From NCBI RefSeq assembly GCF_963921235.1, contig NC_086108.1, positions 9,486,001 through 9,550,000 on the forward strand: DNA of 64,000 nucleotides. Direction: 5' to 3'. Made by a program: the position numbers and the translations under genes. The notes under the pieces are model-generated. The model did no database searches, was not told the origin of the DNA, and saw only the letters and a list, made by a program, of their open reading frames with translations. Below are positions 1 through 36,985 of the stretch, one piece after another. Position 1 is the stretch's first letter, and each line of letters opens with the position of its first letter. Origin of the DNA: Mobula hypostoma. Lineage: Eukaryota.

Positions 1-1374
1 CACTGTCGTGCAGTTTTATAAAAAAGTCAGCTGGTATGTTGTTCCAGGTACCTGGGAGAACCTGCCACAGATCTTCTGCAGACTTTGGCTGATCAGGGCT
101 CTGTGGAGGCCATACCACCTGAAACCTTGTTAAGCAAAAATCTAGGGTGCCTAAGACTTTTGCACAGTAATGTATGTCCCTGCAAGTCTTGGCATTCTGG
201 GTTTCACAGAGGAAGCTTGCTCCTCAGGTGTGCAACCACTACAGCAGCACATACACTGTTGCTACAAAATAGATTTCAATCTTTACAAATCTGATGGCTT
301 CGGGAGGGTCATTTGGACAGATGTAAAAGAGAGCTGAGATGTAACCTCTTTACACAGTACTCGGAATGAGCTGCCAGAGGAATGGTTGAGGTGGGTACAA
401 TTCCAAAATTACGATAGGTACATAGACGGACTGAATGTGGGCAACTGACACTAGCAGGCAAGACTGCTGTGGGCAGCGTGGACCAGATGGACCTGTTTGC
501 TTGCTGTGTGACTCCAGGACTCTGCTTCCTACTGATTTGTTAAAACTGGAAGTGGTGGTGAAGCGAAGAGAGAAAGAACTACATTGTGGTAACATTAGTA
601 TATGTTGAATACATTCAGATCCAATCCTTGTAGGTTAATATCTTCAGAATACCCAAGAAATTGTAACAATCTCCCCAAACGCAAGTCATAGATAAAGCTC
701 GTTTATCCTATGGTCACTACAATTTCCCTTTAGGACTTCTACATCTTCATTGAGGTGACGTTACACCACAACAATTTTCCCATAAATACACTACCAGCAT
801 TTATTGCCCAGCCAATATGGTGATGATTAACTGGAGTGTTGAACCTTTGCAGCTTTCAGTGAAGGAGTGGTGCTCCAGCACTTAGTCCCCTAATCAATAT
901 GTCCAAGCAGAAAATCTGAAGGTGAATGTGCAGGTGAAGGATTTCCTCATCTGCACCCTCCTCAGTAGCGGCTGTCAGAGACCCCAGTAAGTAACTGTGG
1001 TGTGTTCTATACATAGCACTACAGGAAGTGAATATTTAGGGTGACAGTGCTTTTTTCCTGCCCTGGATGGTACCAAACACATTATTGTCGAGTAACTATG
1101 AACAGTTTCCGCCAATATTCACATCACTTCACCTTACAGATGGAGGAATGACTGAAGAGTGAAATGAGGAATGACTGGGTGCTCAAGTGAGACACTTGAG
1201 CACCCAGCTTCTGACCTGCTTCTTTATCCAGTGTGTCTATGCTTGATGCAGTCAACTTTCTGTACAATGGTGTAATCTCAAATTCTGATGGGCAGTAACA
1301 ACATACATCCTTTTCCCAAGTGATTTCCACTCAGCCCGTAGAATTCAAGGTGGAATCCATGGTGGAAGACCTAC

Positions 1375-1458
1375 CTCCTAAGGCATGCTCTGTCATACTG
1401 AGGCAAAGGGACTCCAATCTCGTGTTAATCTCCGGTTCCGTCACTGGCACTTGACATT
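1375..1458 (-). CDS. SAMD4B: SAMD4B-like near-terminal coding exon (84 bp)
   Basis: taccag|AA...GGAG|gtagg; [28 protein letters not shown]. The usual last exon (DGxDxTSTI) was not found in 1-1374. Confidence 0.92.
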
Positions 1459-2018
1459 CTGGTAAAATAGCAAAAAAACCTTAGTAAACCAAAACAGTGA
1501 ATACCAAAATCTGTCCTGTCCTTCCGTTTCTGTGGTCAAAGGCTGCTGAGTATTCTGGGATTTATTTCCAGTGATGTTAACAGCTGTTCTTTCTGGGTGA
1601 AACAAATCTGAGTCCCTTAGAAGGTGCAAATACAGTCTGATTATGCACGGAGCGTTTTGCATGTGATTAGCTTTCTGGTGCAGATTTTCATCTGATCTAC
1701 ATCTCCTCAGGTTCCCCAATATCAAACTAAAACCTCTCAACTTTCTACTCTACAATGGAACATCTCACTCCCTCTGTGAATGGTGCTGCAGCAAAAGCCT
1801 TGCACTCAACGTCAGTAAGACAGAAGAACAGACTGTGGACTTTAGTAAGGGTAAGACAAGGGAACACACATCAGTCCTCAGAGAGGGATCAGAAGTGAAG
1901 AGAGTTAGCAATTTCAAGTTCCTGGGTGTCAATATCTCTGAGGATCTAACCTGGGTCCAACATACTGATGCAGCTACAAAGGCAGGAAAACAGCGGCTAT
2001 ATTTCATTAAGAGCTTGA

Positions 2019-2267
2019 CGAGCAACACACATAAAAGTTGCTGGTGAACGCAGCAGGCCAGGCAGCATCTCTAGGAAGAGGTACAGTCGACGTTTCAGGC
2101 CAAGACCCTTCGTCAGGACTAACTCTTCCTTCAGTTAGTCGTGACGAAGGGTCTGGGCCTGAAACGTCGACTGCACCTCTTCCTAGAGATGCTGCCTGGC
2201 CTGCTGCGTTCACCAGCAACTTTGATGTGTGTTGCTTGAATTTCCAGCATCTGCAGAATTCCTGTTG
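2019..2267. mobile_element. Fold-back Penelope-like terminal-repeat insertion with hammerhead motifs
   Basis: Inverted arms 2021-2123 and 2134-2236 with a 10-nt spacer; TSD TAAGAGCTTGA at 2008-2018 and 2268-2278; interrupts a Rex1-like frame (YFIKSL|RRSG). Confidence 0.85.
2085..2120 (-). ncRNA. Minimal type-I hammerhead ribozyme motif, intact core
   Basis: AGTC-CTGACGA-AGG(GTCTTGG)CCT-GAAA-C-GTC-GACT: stem I AGTC/GACT, core CUGANGA, stem II, GAAA, GUC cleavage triplet; no monomeric stem III. Confidence 0.75.
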
Positions 2268-2714
2268 TAAGAGCTTGAGGAGATCTGGTCTGTCACTTGG
2301 AAACTTCTACTGTGGAGAGCATTCAAACTGGTTGCATCACCATCCGGTATGGGGGGGGGCGGCAACCGTACAGGATCAAAATAAGCTGCAGAGTTGTAAA
2401 CATAGTCAGCTCCATCATGGCACTAATCTCTGTAGTATTACGGACATCTTCAAGGACTGATGCCTTAAAAAACCAGCATCCATCATTAAGGACTCCCACC
2501 CCCCCACCCAGCTCACGCCTTGTCTCATAGCTACCAAAAGCAAGGAGGTACAGGAGCCTGAAGACCCACACTCAACGATTCTGGAAGAACTTCTTCCCCT
2601 CTGCCATCTGATTTCTGAATGGTTATTGAACCCATGAACACTACCTCACTAATTATTTTTTTCTATTTTTGCACTAATTTAACTATTTAAAAAAAATACA
2701 CACACACACATACA

Positions 2715-4315
2715 TAGATACAAGAAAAAATTTGTGACCCTTTGCATTTACCCGGTTTTCTACATTAATTACTCATAAAATGTGGTCTGATCTTCATCTA
2801 AGTCACAATAATAGAGAAACAATCTGCCTAACCTAATAACACAAACAATTGTACTTTTCATGTCTTTATTGAACACACTGTTTAATCATTCAGTCCAGGC
2901 TGGGAAAAACCTGAACCCTTGTATTTAAACTGACAGAATCTCCTTCAGCAGCAATAACCTCCAATCGTTTCCAGTAGCTACCAATCAGACTTGAACAATT
3001 GCAAAGAGGAATTTTAAACCATTCCTCTATACAAAACTGTTTTAGTTCATCAATATTTCTGAAATACCTTGCATAAACAGTCCCCTTCATGTCATGCCCC
3101 AGCAGCTCAATTGGGTTAAGGTCTGGACGTTGATTTGGCCAATCTAAAACATGAATTTTCTTCTTTTTAAACCATTCTGTTGAATTACTCTTGTGTTTCG
3201 GATCATTATCTTGTTGCATTATTGGACTTCTATTAAGCTTCAGGTGACAGACTGCTACCCAGACGTTCTCCTGTAAAATGTCTCAATATAATTTTGATTC
3301 ACTGTTCCCTCAACAACTGCAAGTTGTCCAGGCCCTGATGCAGCAAAACAGCTCCAAACCATGATGCTCCTTCCACCATGCTCCACAGTCCGGATGAAGT
3401 TTTGGTGTTGGTGTGCAGTCCCCTTTTCCCTCCAAACATAGCAGTGTGCATTTCTCCCAAAAGGTTTGGATTCTGTCTCATCTATCCACAGAAGATTGTC
3501 CCAGTTATGCTGTGGAACATCCAGATAGTCTTTTGCAAACTTAAGACATGCAGCAATGTGTTTTTTTGGAGAGCAGCAGTTTCCTCTATGGTGTCCTTCC
3601 ATGAACACTTCTCCTGCTCAGTGTTTTTCTTATAGTGGACACATGAACAGAGGCTTCAGCAAGTTCTAGAGATTTCTGCAGGTCCTTTGCTGTTACCCTT
3701 GGGTTCTTTGTCACCTCCTTCAGCATTGCACGTTGTGCTCTTGGTGTGATCTTTGCAGGACACCCACTCCCAGGGAGAGTAGCAACAGTACTGAGATTCC
3801 ACCATTTGTAGACAGTTTCTCTTACTGTGGATTGATGAACACTCTGGTCTGTAGAAATGCTTTTGTAGTTTCCAGTTTCATGCATCTCTACAATTCTTCT
3901 AAGGTCCTCAGAGTTGTTTTGATCGAGGCATGGTGCACATAAACTGATCTATCTTGAGAAAAGCATGCTCTGCCAGTAACCTGACTTTGTGTGTCTTTTT
4001 TTTAAAATATAGGGCAGGGTACCTCTACACTGCACACCTCTAATCTCATCTCATTGATTGGACCCCTGACTCCAAATAGCTTTTGTAGAGGGCGTTACCC
4101 CAGAGGTTCAGATACTTATTTAAACCTAGACTGTGATTGTTTAAATGGTGTTCTCAGTATTGACAAGAAGTAGTACAATTGTTTGTGTTAATAGTTTAGG
4201 AAGATTGTGTTTGCCCATTATTGAGACTTAGATGAAGACCAGACCACAGTTTATGAGTAATTAATATAGAAAATCAGGTAATTGCAAAGGGTCTGTAAAC
4301 TCTTCCTTGCAACTG
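2715..4315 (-). mobile_element. Tc1-family DNA transposon (~1.6 kb, ~200-bp TIRs), decayed
   Basis: Long inverted repeats at ~2715-2920 and ~4105-4315 (right end ...TTGCAACTG|TA); inserted at a TA within a Rex1-like tail. Confidence 0.9.
2890..3931 (-). pseudogene. Tc1 transposase, frameshifted
   Basis: ATG MPRSKQL at 3931; fragments carry WIDET, VEHGGRSIMVWSCF, QQDNDPKH and DLNPIE motifs in different frames. Confidence 0.92.
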
Positions 4316-4528
4316 TATACTTACTGTAAACCACAACTTTTTTCTCTATCATTATGTATTGCATTGTACTGTTGCAGCAAAGACAACAAATTTCATGACA
4401 CATACTGGCGATATTCGGCCTGATTCTAATTCTGATACAGGATCTCCAAGTATTTTAAAACTTTGCCATTTCTTTATTTCTTTCCAGAGAAGAAAGAAGA
4501 GATGATCAGAAGCTGACCAGCTACAAAC

Positions 4529-4655
4529 CTGCCTGCTGGAACATCAGGATGGTTTGCGGAGAGGTGTGCACAGGGAGAGAGTAGGTTCGTTGCACAGAGC
4601 TGCGACTTTGACTCGGCATGCTATTACTGCCACCAGGATTGGCAAACCACAGGTT
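4529..4655 (-). CDS. SAMD4B: SAMD4B-like coding exon (127 bp)
   Basis: taacag|AAC...GCAG|gtttg; [42 protein letters not shown]; phase 0/1. Confidence 0.94.
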
Positions 4656-6201
4656 CTGTTAGGAAAGGGAAGATGTGCTTAGCTCAGCATGGTTGAATTT
4701 CCTCTCAATAGAAGCTTAAATATTATCCGTTGAAAGAACATAATCATACATTCTCGCAGTCACACAAAACAGTGTTATCAATGATAAAACTTGGTTACCT
4801 GAGCTTCTTCGATAGCTATAACCCCAGAACTTGAATTCCTTTTTGAGCGTGGATACACTCAGCTCATTCAAAGCAATGCATTTCCCCTTTCAACCCCATT
4901 TTTCTGCCTTTTCACAGTAACATACAAGACCATGAACTACAGGAGTAGGCCAATTGACCCATCGGGTTCTCCCCGTCACTTCACCACGGCTGCTCCATTT
5001 CCTCCTCAGCCCCAATCTCCTGCTTTCTCCCTCTATCCCTTCATGCCCAGACTAATCAACAATTTAAAACCCTCTAACTTAAATATATCCAATGACTTGG
5101 CAATGAATTCCACAGATTCACCACTGTCAGGCTAAAGAAATTCCTCTTCACCTCCATTCTAAATGGACACATCTCTATTCTGAGGCCCTGTCCCCTGGTT
5201 TGAGACTCCCTCACCGTAAGAAACATCCTCTCCACATCTACTCTATAGAGGCCTTTCAATGAAGTGACCCCCATTCTTCTGAATTCCTGTGAGTATGGGC
5301 CTACAGCCATCAAACGCTCCTCACATGATAAGTCTTTCAATCCTGGAATCATTATGGTGAACCTCCTTTGAACCCTCTCCACATTTGCTAATCAAGAACA
5401 TATCAACCCCTGCTTTAAATATATCCAATGACTTGGCCTCCACAGCCGTCTGTGGCAATGAATTCCACAGATTCACCTCTCTCTGGCTGAAGAAATTCCT
5501 CCTCATCTCCGTTCTAAAGGGCTGTCATTGCACTCAAAATTGAGGGGTTTAGATAGGGTAAACGCAGGTGGACTTTTTCCACTGAGGTTGGGTGAGACTA
5601 AAATTAGAGATGGGTTAAGAGTGAAAGGTGAAAAGCTGAAGGGGAAAGTGAGGGGAAACTTCTTCATTCAGAGGGTGGTGAGAGTGTGGAATGAGCTGCC
5701 AGCGCAAATTGCGTATTCAAGCTCAATTTCAATATTTAATTGAAGTACATGGATTGTAGGGGTGGAGGGCTATTGTCCAGCAGCAGGTAGATTGGAGTAG
5801 GCAGTTTAATGGTTCAGCATAGACTAGATGGACTGAAGGGCCTGTTCTGTGTTGTACTTATCTATCGCTCTATTTTGGAGTTGTGCCCTCTGGTCGTAGA
5901 CTCTCCCACTACTGAAAACATCCTCCCTGTGTCTACTCTATCTAGGCTTTTCAATATTCGGTATTTTTCAATGAGATCCCTCTCTCATTCTTCTAAACTC
6001 CAGCTGGGCTCAGTGGGCTGGAAGGGCCTATTATCATGCAGTACCTCTGAATAAATAAATAAATACAACCTAATTTGAAATTCAGACTATGAGATTAACC
6101 TGGTGAATGGTTCAGCCAAACTGAAAGTATCTGCATCAAAACAGACCTTCCAAATGTATTCACTTTGCACACAAACGCTACTTCATAATAAACACACTAA
6201 C

Positions 6202-17452: not shown

Positions 17453-18807
17453 TAGTGAAACCCTGCTATAACACGATTGTTTGGGTCCATAGAATGTCAT
17501 CGCGAAAAAATCAGGGTTGTTGTTACTGTAGAGATGATCCTCTGATCTAAGGGCTGGACTTTGGATGTAGTGTTCTTGGGGAGATAAGAAACTCGGATCT
17601 TTCTGTCACGGCTTACTAGGTTGGCAGCTGGCAGATGCACGGAACAGTTGTCAAACGAAAGGAGAGCTTTGGGTTCTAGCTTTTGCTTAGCAAATCAGCG
17701 CAGATGGCAGGGGCAAAAGTTTTGTGAAACCAATCCTCAAAAGATGACACTTGTCATCCAAGCATTGCTGCTGTGCGTGTACTCAAACAGTAACTTCATG
17801 TTGACATGGTGGAAACAGCGGGGCGAGCGAGATTTGCCAATCATGAGCAGTTTTAACTTGTGTTCCAATCTTGCTTGCACAAAACAACAACATCATGCGA
17901 CCTTTGTGTTGTTTGAACCCCTCACGTCGGTGGGCGTCATCTTTGCTAGCCAGTGTACGGTCTGGGATCATCTTGTAGCAGAGGCCTGTTTTGTCACAGT
18001 TGTACACTTGTTCTTCCACGTAGCCACCTTCTTCTAAGCAAGTTTTTAGTTCAGCCGGGTATTCGCTTGCGGCGGCACTGTCGGCTGAGCAAATTTCTCC
18101 TGACACTAACACTTGAGAAATCCCGTGACGGCGTTTAAACCGGTCTAGCCATCCATTGCTAGCTTTGAACTGTGAGGGTTCTCTGCTGATCTGCTTGTCA
18201 AACTTCTTGGCTTGAGCTTTGAGAATAGGACCGGAAATTGGAAGGCCTTCTGAGCGAGCTTGAACAAACCACTCGTACAGGGAGTCATCGAGGCTGACAT
18301 CTTTTGCTGCCTTCAGGCGGTTAGCTTTTAGTCCTGCTTCTTCTTCAACTTTGCAACGCGACGCACATAACTGTTCTTCGTGAGATTTCCAGCCATGAAG
18401 TGTTGATTCTGGTATCCCCAGGTTTCGTGCAACTTGAGTTTGACTTTTAGTCTTGATCGCGTCAAGTGCGTGAAGCTTATCTTTCACAGAAAAAGATTTT
18501 CTTTTTCTAGCAGTTTGTTCCATTTTGACCAAAAAAAACGTCCAATGACTCACACCAAAATGCTGGTGGAACGCAGCAGGCCAGGCAGCATCTGGTCGAG
18601 ACCCTTCATCAGGACTAACGGAAAAAAGAGACAGTGAGAGATTTGAAAGTGGGAGGGAGAGGGAGGGACCCAAAATGATAGAAGACGACAAGAGGGGAAG
18701 GGATGAAGCCAAGAGCTGGGAAGTTGATTGGCAAAAGCGATACAAGGCTGGGGAAGGGGGAGTATGGACTGACATGGACATGGAGTCCAATGACTCATCG
18801 TGTTATA
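17453..18807 (-). mobile_element. Tigger/pogo-family DNA transposon, decayed and interrupted by a PLE fragment
   Basis: Transposase from ATG 18523: CENP-B-type HTH (MEQTARKRKSFSVKDK...FKASNGWLDRFKRRHGI) and NCDKTG, then frameshifted NAWMT, FDN and QPLDQ down to ~17525. TIR-like TAGTGAAACCCTGCTATAACACGA at 17453; partial inverted match at 18798-18807. Confidence 0.88.
18553..18784 (-). mobile_element. Penelope-like pLTR fragment inserted upstream of the Tigger ORF
   Basis: TSD GTCCAATGACTCA at 18540-18552 and 18785-18797; the GAAAC-GTC half of the hammerhead is deleted. Confidence 0.8.
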
Positions 18808-30396: not shown

Positions 30397-30591
30397 TGTG
30401 GCGACCCACTTTCTGACACCCACGAACCGGCTCACGAAACAGCGCGCGCAGGCAGAGGGCAGGCCGCAAAAAGGGCGGGAACGGGAAGGCTTTAAAGCGG
30501 GCCGCGAAGTTTGAATAAACCTCTTTCATCGCAACTCCAACTCACCGACTCCGTGTGGTTATTCTAGCGCTGTGTGTAGCACATCGCTACA
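30397..30591 (+). repeat. 5' LTR of the Gypsy element
   Basis: TGTGGCGA...TCGCTACA termini; TTTAAA and AATAAA (30514-30519) inside; 4 mismatches vs the 3' LTR. Confidence 0.96.
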
Positions 30592-30593
30592 AT

Positions 30594-30607
30594 TGGTGAC
30601 CCCGACG
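30594..30607 (+). other. Primer-binding site, tRNA-Trp
   Basis: TGGTGACCCCGACG, 2 nt after the 5' LTR, complementary to the 3' end of vertebrate tRNA-Trp (...CGUCGGGGUCACCA). Confidence 0.85.
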
Positions 30608-30631
30608 GCCCAAACGATATTTGGACCAGAG

Positions 30632-33600
30632 ATGACCGATGCCGCATCTGTTCACGCAGTTTCGTTACAACTGCCAGGCTTCAGGACGCTGCGACCCCAT
30701 TTATGGTTCGAACAGGCAGAAGCACAATTCCACATTCGGCAGATAACCTCGGAGTCCACTCGCTACTACTACGTGCTGAGCTCCCTCGACCAGGAGACTG
30801 TTGCACAAGTTAAGGAGTTTATACAGTCGCCCCCGGAGGACGGCAAATACACAGCATTCAAAACCCTGCTCATAAGGACTTTCGGACTCTCACGGCGCGA
30901 ACGAGCACGCCGCTTAATGCACCTGGATGGTTTGGGAGACAGGCCGCCGTCAACATTAATGAACGAGATGCTGGCCCTGGCTGAAAGACACAAACCCTGC
31001 CTCATGTTTGAGCAGGCGTTCCTAGAGCAACTGCCTGAGGACATATGCCTGCTGCTGTCCGACGCAGATTTCAGCAAACCCTGGGAGGTGGCGGCCCGAG
31101 CAGATGTGCTGTGGAATGCCAGGAAAGAGAGAGGGGCATCCGTCGCACAGATCACCAAGCCGCGTGCCCAACGACAGACCAGACCAGGCCCGGCAGCAGA
31201 GCCTACAAAACCCGGCGACGGGAGTGAGGAGCCCAATGAACAATGGTGTTTCTACCACCAGCGGTGGGGCACGGAGGCCCACCGCTGCAGACCGCCCTGC
31301 AAATTCCTGGGAAATGCCAAGGCCCAGCCGCTGCCGATCGCTACGGCGGCTGGCCATCAGGACAGTCTCCTGTACGTCTGGGACAAGCAGTCGAGACGCC
31401 GCTTTTTGGTCGACACCGGAGCGGAGATCAGCATCTTACCTCCAACGAGTTACGACACCCGCAACAGAGAACCGGGACCCACCCTGAGGGCCGCTAATGG
31501 CAGCACAATACGAACCTACGGCACCCGCACGGTGCGGCTACAGTTCAGCTCCAGCTGGTTCACGTGGGACTTCACACTGGCCGCCGTGGCCCAACCACTC
31601 CTGGGCACGGATTTTCTACGAGCCCACAGCCTGCTGGTCGACTTGCAAAGGAAGCGATTAGTCCATGCCAAGACTTTTCAAACGTTCTCCCTGGGTGAAG
31701 CACAGTTGCCAGCCCCACACCTGGACTCCATCACGCTGTCCGACGATGAATTCACCAGGGTCCTGGCGGATTTCCCATCAGTACTGACACCGCAGTTCAC
31801 GGCAGCCATGCCCAGACACGGAGTACAGCACCACATCCCGACCCAGGGACCACCCCTCCACGCCCGTGCTTGAAGGCTTCCCCCGGACAAGCTCCGACTG
31901 GCGAAGGAGGAGTTCAAGAAGATGGAGGAATTAGGGATCATACGACGGTCCGACAGCCCATGGGCCTCCCTCCTTCACATGGTGCCCAAGGCAACGGGGG
32001 GCTGGAGACCATGAGGTGACTACCGCAGACTGAACGAGGCTACAACGCCAGACCGCTACCCTGTGCCGCACATTCAAGACTTCGCAGCAAACCTACACGG
32101 CGCAAGGATCTTTTCCAAGGTAGACCTCGTCCGGGGATACCATCAAATCCCTGTACATCCGGACGACATCCCCAAAACAGCACTTATCACCCCGTTCGGA
32201 CTTTTCGAATTCCTCCGAATGCCGTTTGGTCTAAAGAACGCCGCACAGACTTTCCAGCGGCTAATGGACGCGGTGGGACACGACCTGGACTTTGCATTCA
32301 TCTATTTGGACGACATCCTCATAGCGAGCAGTAGTCGGCAGGAGCATCTGTCCCACCTCCGCCAGCTCTACTCCCGCCTGAGTGAATTCGGCCTTACAAT
32401 CAATCCAGCCAAATGCCAGTTTGGACTCGACACCATCGACTTCCTGGGCCACAGGATTACTAAAGACGGGGCAACCCCGCTGCCCGCCAAGGTAGACGCG
32501 GTCCGCCACTTCCCCCGACCCAACACAATCAAAGGCTTGCAGGAATTCGTGGGTATGGTGAATTTCTACCACTGTTTCCTCCCCTCAGCAGCCCGAACGA
32601 TGCGCCCCTTGTTCACTCTAATGTCGGGTAAGGGCAAGGACATTACCTGGAACCAAGAGGCCGCAACCGCTTTCATTAAAACCAAAGAAGCCTTGGCAAA
32701 CGCCGCGATGCTAGTGCACCCCAGAACGGACGTTCCTACTGCCCTCACGGTGGACGCATCCAACACAGCAGTCGGTGGAGTGCTGGAACAACTCATCGAG
32801 GGTCGCTGGCAACCCCTGGCGTTCTTCAGCAAACACCTACGACCACCGGAACTCAAATACAGTGCTTTCGACCGGGAGCTATTGGCACTATACCTGGCAA
32901 TCCGGCATTTCAGGTACTTCTTAGAAGGTAGGCCCTTCACCGCGTTCACCGACCACAAACTGCTTACCTTTGCGTTCACTAAGGTGTCCGACCCCTGGTC
33001 GTCCCGCCAGCAGCAACATCTGTCCTACATCTCCGAGTACACGACGGACATCCGGCATGTCTCTGGAAAGAACAATGTCGTGGCAGACGCACTTTCCAGA
33101 CCTACTATACAGGCCCTGTCCCAGGGGGTGGACTATGCAGCGCTGGCAGAGGCACAGCAGGCAGACGCTGAGATCCCCAGTTACAGGACTGCAGTCTCCG
33201 GTTTGCAGCTCCAAGACCTCCCCGTAGGCCCAGGTGAGAGGACCCTCCTGTGTGACGTAGCTACTGGCCAACCCCGCCCCGTCGTCCCAGCAGCCTGGCG
33301 CCGGCGGGTGTTCGAATCCATTCACAACTTAGCGCACCCCTCCATCAGGACAACCGTCCGGCTGGTCTCCAACAGGTTCGTGTGGCATGGACTGCGTAAA
33401 CAGGTCAGTGAATGGGCCAAAACGTGTATGCAGTGCCAAACGGCCAAGGTGCAGCGGCACACCAAGGCTCCACCGCAGCGGTTCGAACCCACCCGTTGGA
33501 GGTTTGACCACATCCATGTGGATATCGTGGGGCCCCTGCCAGTGTCACGAGGAGCGCGGTACCTCCTAACTATGATAGACCGGTTCACCAGATGGCCAGA

Positions 33601-34495
33601 GGCAGTCCCACTCAGCGACACCACCTCCGAATCCTGCGCCCGAGCACTGATCGCAACCTGGGTAGCACGCTTTGGGGTACCGGCCCACATTACCTCCGAC
33701 AGGGGCGCCCAGTTCACCTCCAGCCTGTGGTCGGCTATGGCCAGACTTTTAGAAACACAGCTACACCACACAACTGCCTACCACCCACAGTCGAACGGAC
33801 TAGTGGAGCGCTTCCACCGTCACCTGAAATCGGCTCTCATGGCCCGCCTGGAGGGGCCTAACTGGGTGGACGAACTTCCCTGGGTCCTGCTCGGAATCCG
33901 CACGGCGCCCAAAGAGGATCTACACACCTCGTCGGCCGAGTTGGTGTACGGCGCGCCCCTGGTCGTCCCAGGAGAGTTCATACCAGCCCCAAGGGGGCAA
34001 GAGGAAGAACCCACAGCAGTCCTGGACAGACTACGGGAGAGGCTCGGTAACCTGGCCCCCATACCCACTTCACAGCACGGACAGAGCCCGACCTGCGTAC
34101 CCAAAGACCTGCAGAACTGTAAGTTTCTTTTTGTACGACGGGGCGGACACCGGGCACCGCTACAGCGGCCCTACGAGAGGCCGTTTAAGGTGATCAGCAA
34201 CAACGGGTCCACGTTCGTGCTGGACATTGGGGGGAGAGAGGAGGTTTTCACGGTGGACCGACTCAAACCGGCCCATGTGGACTTGGCGCAACCGGTCCAG
34301 GCTCAGGCACCACGGCGCAGGGGCAGACCTCCCAAACAGAGGCCGATCCAGACTGTGGACATTGGGGGAGGTATCGCCGGTTCTGGGGGGGCGTTATGTG
34401 GCGACCCACTTTCTGACACCCACGAACCAGCTCACGAAACAGCGCGCGCAGGCAGAGGGCAGGCAGCAAAAAGGGCGGGAACGGGAAGGCTTTAA
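30632..34495 (+). pseudogene. Gypsy gag-pol in one frame with two premature TGA stops (31871-31873, 32012-32014)
   Basis: Gag with a CFYH...C..PC knuckle; protease FLVDTGA; RT YLDD; RNase H TVDAS/DRELLA/ADALSR; integrase HNLAH-CMQC with HVD/SDRG/VER. ORFs 30572-31873 and 32063-34495 are in the same frame. Confidence 0.93.
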
Positions 34496-34803: not shown

Positions 34804-36745
34804 CTGTGATAAAAATGAGAAACCAAAAAATCTCACTTCAGAAACAGAGGGAAAACTATCATTAGTTGACGGACCTGTTACAATAAATAATTCAATTGTA
34901 TAATAGCAATTATAGTTATAGAGTAGATACTGAAGTTTAGTTATCCACCTACTAACCAGTCACATCTCAATTTAACTGTCAACACCATTCACTACATTCA
35001 TAGCTAGAATCCATCCAAATGTGTTCCAACACTATTACAACCCAACTGACCAGAAATTTGAAGACTGATACTCCCAAGAAAGATTTCATAATATATGCCA
35101 ATAGATTATACTTACCCACAGGAGGGAAAAGAGAAAATAAAACACCCAAACCTCTTCCACAGACCTAACACAATTGATTCACAGAATCAACAAACAATGA
35201 TGTTGCCGAGGCCACTGAATTTCAGCACGGAGGAATAACTGAGTAGGTTGGATGTTATGCTAAAACAATGCAGAACCAGTGTGGACAGCTTCACTCACCA
35301 CAGCTCTGAACTGATCATTGAACATAACCTATGGACTCAATTTCAAAGACTCTACAAGTCATGTTCTCAGAATTACTTATTTAATATTATTAGGTTCTTT
35401 TTGTATTTACAGTTTGTCTTCTTTTGCACATTGATTTGTTTGTTCAAAGTTTAAAGTAATTTTTATTATCAAAGTACATAAACCTCACCATATATAACCA
35501 AGATAATTTTTTCGTGGGCATATTCAACAAATCTATAGTATAATAACCATAACAGAAACAATGAAAAACTGAACCAACTTGGATGTTTAACCAGAGTGTA
35601 GAAGACAACAAGCTGCAAACACGAAAAGAGGAAATAATAATAAAAATAAATAAGCAATAAATATCAAGAACATAAGATGGCGTGAGTCCATTGGATGTGG
35701 AAACATTTCAATGATGGGACAAGTGAAGTTATCCCCTGTGGTTCAAGAGCCTGATGGTTGAGGGGTAATTAACTGTTCCTGATCCTGGTGGTGGTGTCCA
35801 GAGTCCTGGGTGTAGTTTTCCATTGATGCTATTATACTACTTTGATCTACTGTAAATGCCTGAAAGAAAATGAATCTCAGGGTATTATTCTGTAACGTGC
35901 AAGTACTTTGATAATAAATTTACTTTGAACTTTGAAGAGAGTTACAGAGAAGTTATGCATCAATAACTTCGGAATCTAGATTTTACAGTTCATTTTAGTA
36001 AACACCATCTTGGGTCAATCCAAAGAATGTAGGGGTCCCAAACTAATTGAGTTTGTCTAGCTGAAGCAGAAAGCATCTTATGGTACTGGATGCGCTGTGA
36101 CACACAAGGCTAGAGGTGAAAGGTTAAAGATTGGGATCAGGCTAGATCTTAGATAAGCAAGCACAGTCTGACTGATTATAGTTCATGGACTCAGCAACAA
36201 GAGGCTTGACATGGAGCATGCCGTGCAAGTGATGACTATTTAAAGGCAGAAAAAGTCAGTGATTACTTCTGCTTTAGTGCAGTTTTCCAGTAAAATCACA
36301 GTAACAAAACCAGAAAAATCAACAGACAGTTGAGCCCTTGTCATATCTAGCATAAACAAATCTGCATACTGTGAAATACCAAGTAGATAACCATCACAAA
36401 GTGAAGCTCTGTTAATGCATACATTAAACCTCTTATGACAGATTACTAACAAATTATACATAAGGAGAAAACTAGCAGACATTGGATTATGTATTTCCCC
36501 TTTTCGAGTAGTTAATGACTACTAGTTGATATTGTTATTGGTTCATTATTGCCACCTGTACCAAGATTGCCTTGCATACTGTTGAGATAGATCAAATCTT
36601 ATCGTACAAGAGTTAGATAACAGTGCGATAGAAGCTGTCCTTGAACTTGGTGGCTTGATATTCAAATTTAACTCTTGCTACAAAAGTGCCTGTCGCAAGT
36701 CTCAAAATATGAGGCTGACAAAAATTCAAAGTACTTTCCAAGTAT

Positions 36746-36985
36746 CACACATCAAAGTTGCTGGTGAACGCAGCAGGCCAGGCAGCATCTCTAGGAAGAG
36801 GTACAGTCGACATTTCAGGCCGAGACCCTTCATCAGGACTAACCCTTCCTTCAGTTAGTCCTGATGAAGGGTCTGGGCCTGAAACGTCGACCGTACCTCT
36901 TCCTAGAGATGCTGCCTGACCTGGTTCACCAGCAACTTTGATGTGTGTTGCTTGAATTTCCAGCATCTGCAGAATTCCTGTTGTT
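36746..36985. mobile_element. Second fold-back Penelope-like insertion with hammerhead motifs
   Basis: Same arms and near-identical spacer as 2019-2267; 14-bp TSD TACTTTCCAAGTAT at 36732-36745 and 36986-36999. Confidence 0.87.
36857..36892 (+). ncRNA. Minimal hammerhead motif, intact core (antisense partner at 36805-36840 on the minus strand)
   Basis: AGTC-CTGATGA-AGG(GTCTGGG)CCT-GAAA-C-GTC-GACC; the minus copy reads AGTC-CTGATGA-AGGGTCTCGGCCT-GAAA-T-GTC-GACT. Confidence 0.73.

What the first reader, a model, noticed from the sequence alone, without database searches (positions are those of the whole stretch)
2008..2278. TSD-flanked fold-back retroelement with hammerhead ribozyme motifs on both strands
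Seen: a ~250-bp insertion with two 103-bp inverted arms. The minus strand reads AGTC-CUGACGA-stemII-GAAA-C-GUC-GACT, a complete hammerhead core with predicted cleavage after 2089. The plus arm has the same motif with C3 changed to G. Established: Penelope-like elements carry minimal type-I hammerheads that lack a monomeric stem III and are thought to cleave as dimers; here the self-complementary ACGU could supply it. Inference: any transcript through the unit contains one ribozyme motif plus its near-perfect antisense, so it would form a self-masking ~100-bp hairpin. The intact copy is in the SAMD4 pre-mRNA sense, ~630 nt upstream of a 3' splice site.
Basis: partly seen in the sequence, partly recalled or inferred. 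Interest (0 to 1): 0.75.

Follow-up and report, generated by a model that had tools for sequence, protein, structure and literature searches.

The report
Fold-back stub of a Penelope retrotransposon
This hairpin-shaped insertion in a shark-or-ray SAMD4 intron is real but ordinary: it is two back-to-back stumps of a very abundant Penelope-like jumping gene, likely joined as the element landed, and the tiny ribozyme motif it carries is the one known for this group and is predicted to be folded shut.

Summary
In detail: 104-nt inverted arms, an 11-nt (up to 15-nt) target duplication, an intact minimal hammerhead core on the minus (SAMD4-sense) strand, and C3G on the plus arm. It is not a separate fold-back element. 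It is the shortest kind of insertion made by a 3.5-kb Neptune/Nematis-type Penelope-like element (PLE) that has at least 37,882 arm copies in this genome. The inverted-copy-plus-one-tail layout and the dimer-type hammerhead are already in print. C3G is private to this copy. Of 60 unselected insertions, 31 are head-to-head pairs, and 29 of the 30 scorable pairs carry exactly one tail. Junctions vary from copy to copy, so the hairpin is likely built anew at each insertion. Nothing supports a role in SAMD4. Two side results bear on how PLEs integrate: either arm can be the longer one and some pairs differ at family-variant sites, which favours priming from both nicked strands; and 26 of 60 copies stop within 12 nt of the hammerhead's 5' edge. 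The scan has flagged the same kind of stub before, in this and other genomes. Interest low.

The parts
2008..2018 (+). Left target-site duplication (11 nt exact; extends to 2022 with one mismatch)
   Evidence: empty-site form in other copies of the host repeat
2021..2124 (-). Tail-less arm: inverted, 5'-truncated end (pLTR) of the PLE; sense to the SAMD4 pre-mRNA
2085..2120 (-). Minimal type-I hammerhead motif with intact core; predicted cut after 2089; no stem III; stem II closed by G-U
2118..2139 (+). Junction: the parent's own 7-bp palindrome around an 8-nt loop (2125-2132) that is parent sense sequence
2133..2236 (+). Tail-bearing arm: 5'-truncated pLTR; hammerhead motif 2137-2172 with private C3G at 2141
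2237..2267 (+). 31-nt PLE 'tail', present on one arm only; in full-length copies it runs on into the ORF
2268..2278 (+). Right target-site duplication (extends to 2282)
1913..2457 (+). Host: decayed older interspersed repeat split by the insertion (approximate bounds); weak PF09004 match; LINE origin is recalled, not shown
1459..4528 (-). SAMD4 (Smaug-1) intron holding the insertion, between exons 4529-4658 and 1376-1458

Best explanation
The insert is two 5'-truncated ends of a 3.5-kb Penelope-like retrotransposon set head to head in a SAMD4 intron, likely joined during one integration event and likely inert since. Shown: the arm sequence is the end (pLTR) of an element with one ORF of reverse transcriptase, CX4CxxC linker and GIY-YIG endonuclease; the hairpin, single tail and target duplication recur across the family with variable arm lengths and junctions. 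Inferred mechanism (about 55-60%): the endonuclease nicks both target strands about 14 nt apart; each nick primes reverse transcription, one at the tail start site and one about 35 nt upstream; both cDNAs stop near the 5' edge of the hammerhead; they join through the parent's 7-nt palindrome. The hammerhead is a passenger from the pLTR. Any function it has belongs to the parent's tandem transcripts. In a transcript through this stub it is predicted to be paired with its antisense arm and unable to fold.
For: Family size: 37,882 exact matches of a 24-mer, reversed control 0; 34,611 exact matches of a 32-mer that includes CUGACGA. Parent: arms continue upstream into shared sequence of variable length; tandem units about 3.5 kb apart; a 1016-aa open frame with DKG, CX4CxxC and GIY-CC-YIG motifs (Pfam RVT_1 and GIY-YIG, both under cut-off; 933 homologs). 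Anatomy of 60 unselected insertions: 31 head-to-head, 3 non-overlapping inversions, 26 single; 29 of 30 scorable pairs have exactly one tail; the tail-less arm reaches further 5' in 13, the tail arm in 9, equal in 7. 1,533 short fold-backs with heterogeneous junctions; this exact junction in 71. Arms agree within copies at 345 of 362 subfamily-diagnostic sites against a shuffled mean of 0.62, 0 of 10,000 shuffles reaching it. Target duplications of 10 nt or more in 55 of 61, median 14. The layout is described in PMC8557442/bioRxiv 2021.04.23.441226 and PMC3846280. Two RT start sites that define the tail, extension of both target strands, loss of activity with C3G, and no need of the hammerhead for insertion in vitro are in PMC11167929.
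Against: High within-copy agreement of arms is also what self-primed fold-back would give, and asymmetric junctions could come from later central deletions. Differences at family-variant sites (50 of 612, against 216 of 9,365 other sites and 131 expected for random arms) could include recurrent mutation or gene conversion. Clade was assigned from motifs, without a tree. The 60 insertions all come from the first 7.6 Mb of one contig. No raw RNA reads were available and no cleavage assay exists for this motif.
Confidence: 0.87

Rival explanations
1. Same element, but the second arm is made by self-priming: one cDNA folds back on a short palindrome and copies itself, and the tail and junction are trimmed afterwards (the reading of Arkhipova et al. 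2013). This differs from the best explanation only in the joining step; the confidence given is for that step.
For: Arms share subfamily variants at 345 of 362 sites. This junction uses a natural 7-bp palindrome of the parent. PMC3846280 reads junction palindromes as self-priming.
Against: In 13 of 29 single-tail pairs the tail-less arm holds upstream sequence the tail arm lacks, while the tail arm holds a tail the other lacks, so neither can be a plain copy of the other. In this window the arms differ at two diagnostic sites whose alleles both occur elsewhere (42T/92T in 4 of 93 arms, 42C/92G in 39 of 93). One long pair differs at 11 of 53 informative sites (L163).
Confidence: 0.35
2. The fold-back unit is itself a non-autonomous mobile element (MITE- or retrozyme-like) that is transcribed as a hairpin and re-inserted whole.
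For: At least 71 copies share this exact junction; the 30 closest copies match over nearly the full 249 nt at 93-100% and nearly all have target duplications.
Against: The junction is a palindrome of the parent, so it can recur independently. Among 30 exact-junction loci the loop belongs to the tail-less arm in 14, to the tail arm in about 15, 1 unresolved. These copies span several parent subfamilies. Only 1 of the first 50 listed short fold-backs has this junction. No A-to-G cluster in this copy; 2 of 63 copies have 3-4 such changes.
Confidence: 0.06
3. The intact, SAMD4-sense hammerhead or the 104-bp hairpin has been co-opted to cut, edit or tune the SAMD4 pre-mRNA.
For: The core on the SAMD4-sense strand is intact and a 104-bp intronic hairpin is a plausible ADAR or Dicer substrate (general knowledge). 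Among 77 older-type copies the non-CpG core is more conserved than the adjacent spacer (0.86 vs 0.73; difference 0.13, bootstrap 0.08-0.17).
Against: That conservation reflects the source elements, not this locus; 115 of 126 young arms have an intact core simply by being young. The antisense arm is transcribed first on the minus strand and pairs with the core as it emerges. Single minimal hammerheads showed no cleavage and dimers little (PMC4209133); the anole motif needed the PLE protein. The nearest similar stub in the gene is 34 kb away.
Confidence: 0.04

Closest known systems
Insertion units of endonuclease-bearing Penelope-like elements: inverted 5'-truncated copy, 30-40-bp tail at one end, target duplication (PMC8557442; PMC3846280; PMC2377424)
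   Same: Head-to-head inverted copy, 31-nt tail on one arm, target duplication, palindrome at the junction, tandem full-length copies elsewhere.
   Different: Both arms are truncated to about 105-145 nt so no ORF lies between them; duplications here are 13-15 nt in most copies against 8-10 nt in the rotifer examples.
[quoted passage not shown]
   Same: Type-I core, no stem III, palindromic 15.2-16.2, extra nucleotide before stem II, 4-5-bp helix I; that paper already notes pairs of motifs 100-700 bp apart on opposite strands.
   Different: Stem II is about 4 bp and closed by G-U in this young subfamily (G-C in 32 and G-U in 27 of the 77 older copies); the two cores are only about 25 nt apart.
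Neptune/Nematis clades of PLEs; Poseidon element PAc of Anolis (PMC11167929)
   Same: Single ORF RT + C-terminal GIY-YIG; two preferred 3' ends about 35 nt apart matching two RT start sites; hammerhead at the pLTR-ORF junction.
   Different: CX4CxxC linker is present (absent in Poseidon); the likely start codon lies about 130 nt downstream of the hammerhead, not in stem II.
Non-LTR retrozymes (bioRxiv 10.64898/2026.07.22.740005)
   Same: Short non-coding PLE-derived sequence with a type-I hammerhead.
   Different: Retrozymes are head-to-tail tandem arrays; this is a single head-to-head unit with no sign of copying as a unit.

Membership tests
EN+ Penelope-like element (parent) | Single ORF with RT and C-terminal GIY-YIG endonuclease | tested here: met
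   1016-aa frame in L133; Pfam RVT_1 and GIY-YIG hits under their cut-offs; 933 homologs. This copy reads YIND at the catalytic motif; L061, L062 and L131 read YIDD.
EN+ Penelope-like element (parent) | DKG motif; two cysteines between GIY and YIG | tested here: met
   DKG at 421; GVIYCVRCSRCGLLYIG at 919; definitions
EN+ Penelope-like element (parent) | Tandem copies forming pseudo-LTRs with a hammerhead | tested here: met
   L113, L116, L117, L123, L124, L130 have the arm and tail directly upstream of the ORF; three arm copies about 3.5 kb apart in L131
EN+ Penelope-like element (insertion) | Inverted 5'-truncated copy with a 30-40-bp tail on one end, target duplication | tested here: met
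EN+ Penelope-like element (parent) | RT groups with PLE RTs in a tree | not tested
   No named reference sequences came back
Neptune or Nematis clade | CX2-5CxxC linker between RT and EN | tested here: met
   CKRNKCYTC at 883; does not separate Neptune from Nematis. Only Neptune and Poseidon were reported in vertebrates.
Minimal hammerhead (min-HHR) | Core CUGANGA / GAAA / UH, extra base before stem II, palindromic 15.2-16.2, helix I of 4-5 bp | tested here: met
   Minus arm; the register with the bulged A pairs in 86% of older copies against 45% for the alternative
Minimal hammerhead (min-HHR) | Conserved G10.1-C11.1 pair; helix II of 7-8 bp as in the Schistosoma examples | tested here: not met
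   G-U closing pair and about 4 bp in this copy
Minimal hammerhead (min-HHR) | Self-cleavage as a dimer | not testable with these tools
   Needs an assay; genomic run-off test at the cut site was inconclusive
Rfam hammerhead families | Match to a curated covariance model | tested here: not met
   No hammerhead family among 6 matches at E<=10 over 1500-2800
Non-LTR retrozyme | Head-to-tail tandem units each with a hammerhead | tested here: not met
   Single head-to-head unit; definition
Non-autonomous fold-back element copied as a unit | One fixed internal junction and fixed ends shared by descent | tested here: not met

The most novel reading that the evidence does not exclude
These stubs are a genome-scale record of an undescribed PLE integration step: a dimeric RT-endonuclease primes reverse transcription from both target nicks, using each of the two start sites once and sometimes two different RNAs, and nearly half of all cDNAs stop at the 5' edge of the uncleaved hammerhead (an RNA start or an RT stop), which is why animal genomes fill with solo and mirror-paired minimal hammerheads.
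Probability: 0.45. Interest if true: 0.45.

Novelty: new member of a known kind. Interest (0 to 1): 0.2.

Why it matters
As a locus it matters little: it is one of tens of thousands of dead stumps. As a data set the family is useful, because how PLEs build inverted copies and tails is stated to be unresolved (PMC8557442, PMC11167929), and this young, abundant family gives countable predictions: one tail per pair, either arm longer, 14-nt stagger, a stop hot spot at the ribozyme's 5' edge. It also warns that genome scans will keep reporting these stubs as 'two-strand ribozyme switches' or miRNA precursors.

Tried and rejected
Rfam: no hammerhead match; mir-4650 and mir-2766 hits are below gathering score and reflect the hairpin. 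PHAT family search of the genome rang nowhere, controls included, so it says nothing. No RNA holder on record was listed for the locus; the runs laid are contigs of uncertain kind and organism, so editing, strand and RNA ends could not be read. Splicing at the branch-point/polypyrimidine/AG run just upstream of the hammerhead: no CT..AC joint there among the 15 of 132 joints shown, and 5 short single copies whose duplication could be placed at the junction abut it with no upstream exon (L057, L135, L146, L204, L215 of 26 listed; the script failed on 16). Run-off at the hammerhead cut site: copies starting exactly there number 362 against 43, 96 and 58 at neighbouring positions, but matched purine-flank controls give 148 and 81 and most of the 30 inspected cases are fold-back junctions with GA/GAC/GACT microhomology; about two-fold over the best control, so inconclusive. 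A first, insensitive search for older copies was replaced. Literature searches for twin priming or both-strand priming in PLEs and for PLEs in elasmobranchs listed no paper that appeared from title and abstract to cover it; subscription papers are mostly absent from the library.

Full report
Numbering. q1 is window 2133, the first base of the plus arm; the core C3 is q9 (2141), the predicted cut follows q36, the tail-less end lies near q100-105 and the tail ends near q136-140.

Observation. The insert has arms 2021-2124 and 2133-2236 (104 nt, 4 mismatches, 8-nt loop), a 31-nt one-sided tail and a direct repeat at 2008-2018/2268-2278 that extends to 15 nt with one mismatch. Other copies of the host repeat carry that stretch once and continue into the right flank, so it is a true target duplication. 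The minus strand carries an intact minimal hammerhead with the cut predicted after 2089; the plus arm has C3G. The gene is SAMD4/Smaug-1 of a cartilaginous fish: the 41-aa exon query hit 24 of 34 candidate proteins, the named ones Smaug/SAMD4, and skate and shark proteins map to ten minus-strand stretches of the window. The join 4529 to 1458 with GT-AG ends is present in contigs of 3 of 4 runs laid; whether those animals carry the insert is unknown.

What it is. A 24-mer of the arm has 37,882 exact matches in the 3.48-Gb assembly, control 0. In the first 30 of these the arm continues upstream into shared sequence of very variable length. Following that sequence led to full-length copies in tandem about 3.5 kb apart and to a 1016-aa frame with DKG, RT motifs, a CX4CxxC linker and GIY-CC-YIG. 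By the definitions in PMC8557442 (passages) this is an endonuclease-bearing PLE of Neptune or Nematis type; no tree was built. In full-length copies arm and tail run on into the ORF start, as described for other PLEs.

The fold-back is an insertion product, not an element. I took 60 of the 70 remaining matches listed, leaving out six second members of pairs, three already held and the last one. Of these 60, 31 are head-to-head pairs with arms from about 50 nt to about 2 kb, 3 are non-overlapping inversions and 26 are single. Of 30 scorable pairs, 29 have exactly one tail. Short fold-backs number at least 1,533 with many different junctions; this window's junction occurs exactly 71 times and uses a 7-bp palindrome already present in one parent subfamily. 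In 63 non-redundant short fold-backs (75 loci plus one window copy, 12 duplicates and 1 without a pair dropped; 30 chosen for likeness to this copy, the rest by junction pattern) a tail was found on exactly one arm in 61, and arms agreed at 345 of 362 diagnostic sites against 0.62 in shuffles. Target duplications were 10 nt or longer in 55 of 61, median 14. The inverted copy, one-sided 30-40-bp tail and duplication are described in bioRxiv 2021.04.23.441226 (passages), PMC3846280 (passages) and PMC2377424 (passages).

The ribozyme. PMC4209133 (parts 1-2 of 4 read) defines the minimal motif, the dimeric stem III from palindromic 15.2-16.2, pairs on opposite strands 100-700 bp apart, no monomer activity and low dimer activity. 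PMC11167929 (parts 1-2 of 4 and passages) shows C3G abolishes cleavage, cleavage needs the PLE protein, and insertion in vitro does not need cleavage. PMC6765202 (passages) reviews the dimer work. Here C3 is altered in 2 of 126 arms and C3G in this copy only; 115 of 126 arms and both arms of 53 of 63 copies are intact, so the one-live, one-dead layout is decay. Among 77 of 113 older-type copies kept for an alignable stem II, the non-CpG core is more conserved than the next spacer (0.86 vs 0.73) and N7 (0.50), and equal to the downstream block used as search seed (0.87); 18 of 77 have an intact core. That fits selection on source elements. The young subfamily closes stem II with G-U. Folding predicts the core paired in any SAMD4-sense transcript through the unit, and even the lone motif prefers a closed hairpin (-11.6 vs -6.8 kcal/mol).

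How it was likely made. Shown: one tail per pair; either arm can reach further 5' (13 tail-less, 9 tail, 7 equal); 14-nt duplications. Arms are usually closer to each other than random copies but differ at family-variant sites more than at other sites (50 of 612 vs 216 of 9,365, random expectation 131; 33 pairs). In this window's copy they differ at q42 and q92, with both allele pairs found elsewhere, and at q23. Inferred: both target nicks prime reverse transcription, one at each of the two start sites, mostly on one RNA or one tandem transcript and sometimes on two; the cDNAs join by microhomology. This fits the both-strand extension, two start sites and predicted dimer reported in PMC11167929, whose main text mentions 'inverted' only in a methods sense. 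Self-priming followed by trimming (PMC3846280) remains possible, and recurrent mutation or conversion could add to the differences. Also shown: 26 of 60 anchor arms have their 5' end in q0-11, against 1 in each neighbouring 12-nt bin. This is the 5' strand of helix I, which overlaps an initiator-like TCAGTT and a branch-point/polypyrimidine/AG run (motif names recalled). An RNA start, or an RT stop as the cDNA hairpin closes, would each explain it; I could not separate them. Run-off at the cut site itself was at most about two-fold over a matched control and confounded.

Against my reading. The exact junction recurs 71 times, and a few fold-backs may have been copied whole. Contig data cannot exclude editing or cleavage in the pre-mRNA. 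The sample of 60 comes from one 7.6-Mb region.

Earlier notes. My reading was recorded before any were seen, and the pair analysis came, which listed 15 findings (8 shown) in at least 12 genomes with the same verdict. One of them prompted the A-to-G check, negative for this copy. bioRxiv 10.64898/2026.07.22.740005 was seen as part 1 of 5 and passages. No supplements were read; the alignment and sequence files of PMC4209133, PMC8557442 and PMC11167929 may already hold chondrichthyan families or 5'-end distributions that bear on novelty.

Verdict. Real, correctly described, and an ordinary truncated head-to-head insertion of a PLE; new member of a known kind; interest 0.2.

Noticed in passing
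window 36739-36983: Second fold-back stub of the same young subfamily in another SAMD4 intron, different junction, 14-nt target duplication; plus arm core intact, minus arm has C15.2U.
   Followed up: partly
window 30515-31873 and 32015-34495 (+): Two long open frames of an LTR retrotransposon (gag-like DUF7041 and protease; RT, RNase H, integrase) antisense within a SAMD4 intron.
   Followed up: no
window 17783-18802 (-): 339-aa frame with CENP-B N-terminal and Tc5 transposase DNA-binding domains; a short PLE fold-back near 18549-18630 lies inside it.
   Followed up: no
whole window: 16 distinct PLE arm copies, young and old, found by the profile: 9 sense and 7 antisense to SAMD4, no orientation bias.
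   Followed up: partly
window 2118-2139 and parent copies such as L031, L041: Directly upstream of helix I the parent has a near-ideal branch point, polypyrimidine run and AG, overlapping an initiator-like TCAGTT. In Drosophila Penelope an intron ends at the same place (PMC4209133). No spliced form was seen.
   Followed up: partly
L134-L193 (G000 C1): 26 of 60 copies are truncated within 12 nt at the 5' edge of the hammerhead.
   Followed up: yes
L152, L153, L190: Non-overlapping 5' inversions resembling L1 twin priming in 3 of 60 insertions.
   Followed up: no
L131 (G000:C21:74006500-74016400): Tandem array of full-length units about 3.5 kb apart; two units share the same frame break.
   Followed up: no
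window 1331-1458 (-): The SAMD4 exon frame stays open for 15 codons past the splice donor to a stop; the usual last coding exon was not found in the window or 10 kb beyond by tblastn.
   Followed up: no
L005, L016: Two of 63 fold-backs show 3-4 A-to-G type changes on one strand, too few to call editing.
   Followed up: partly
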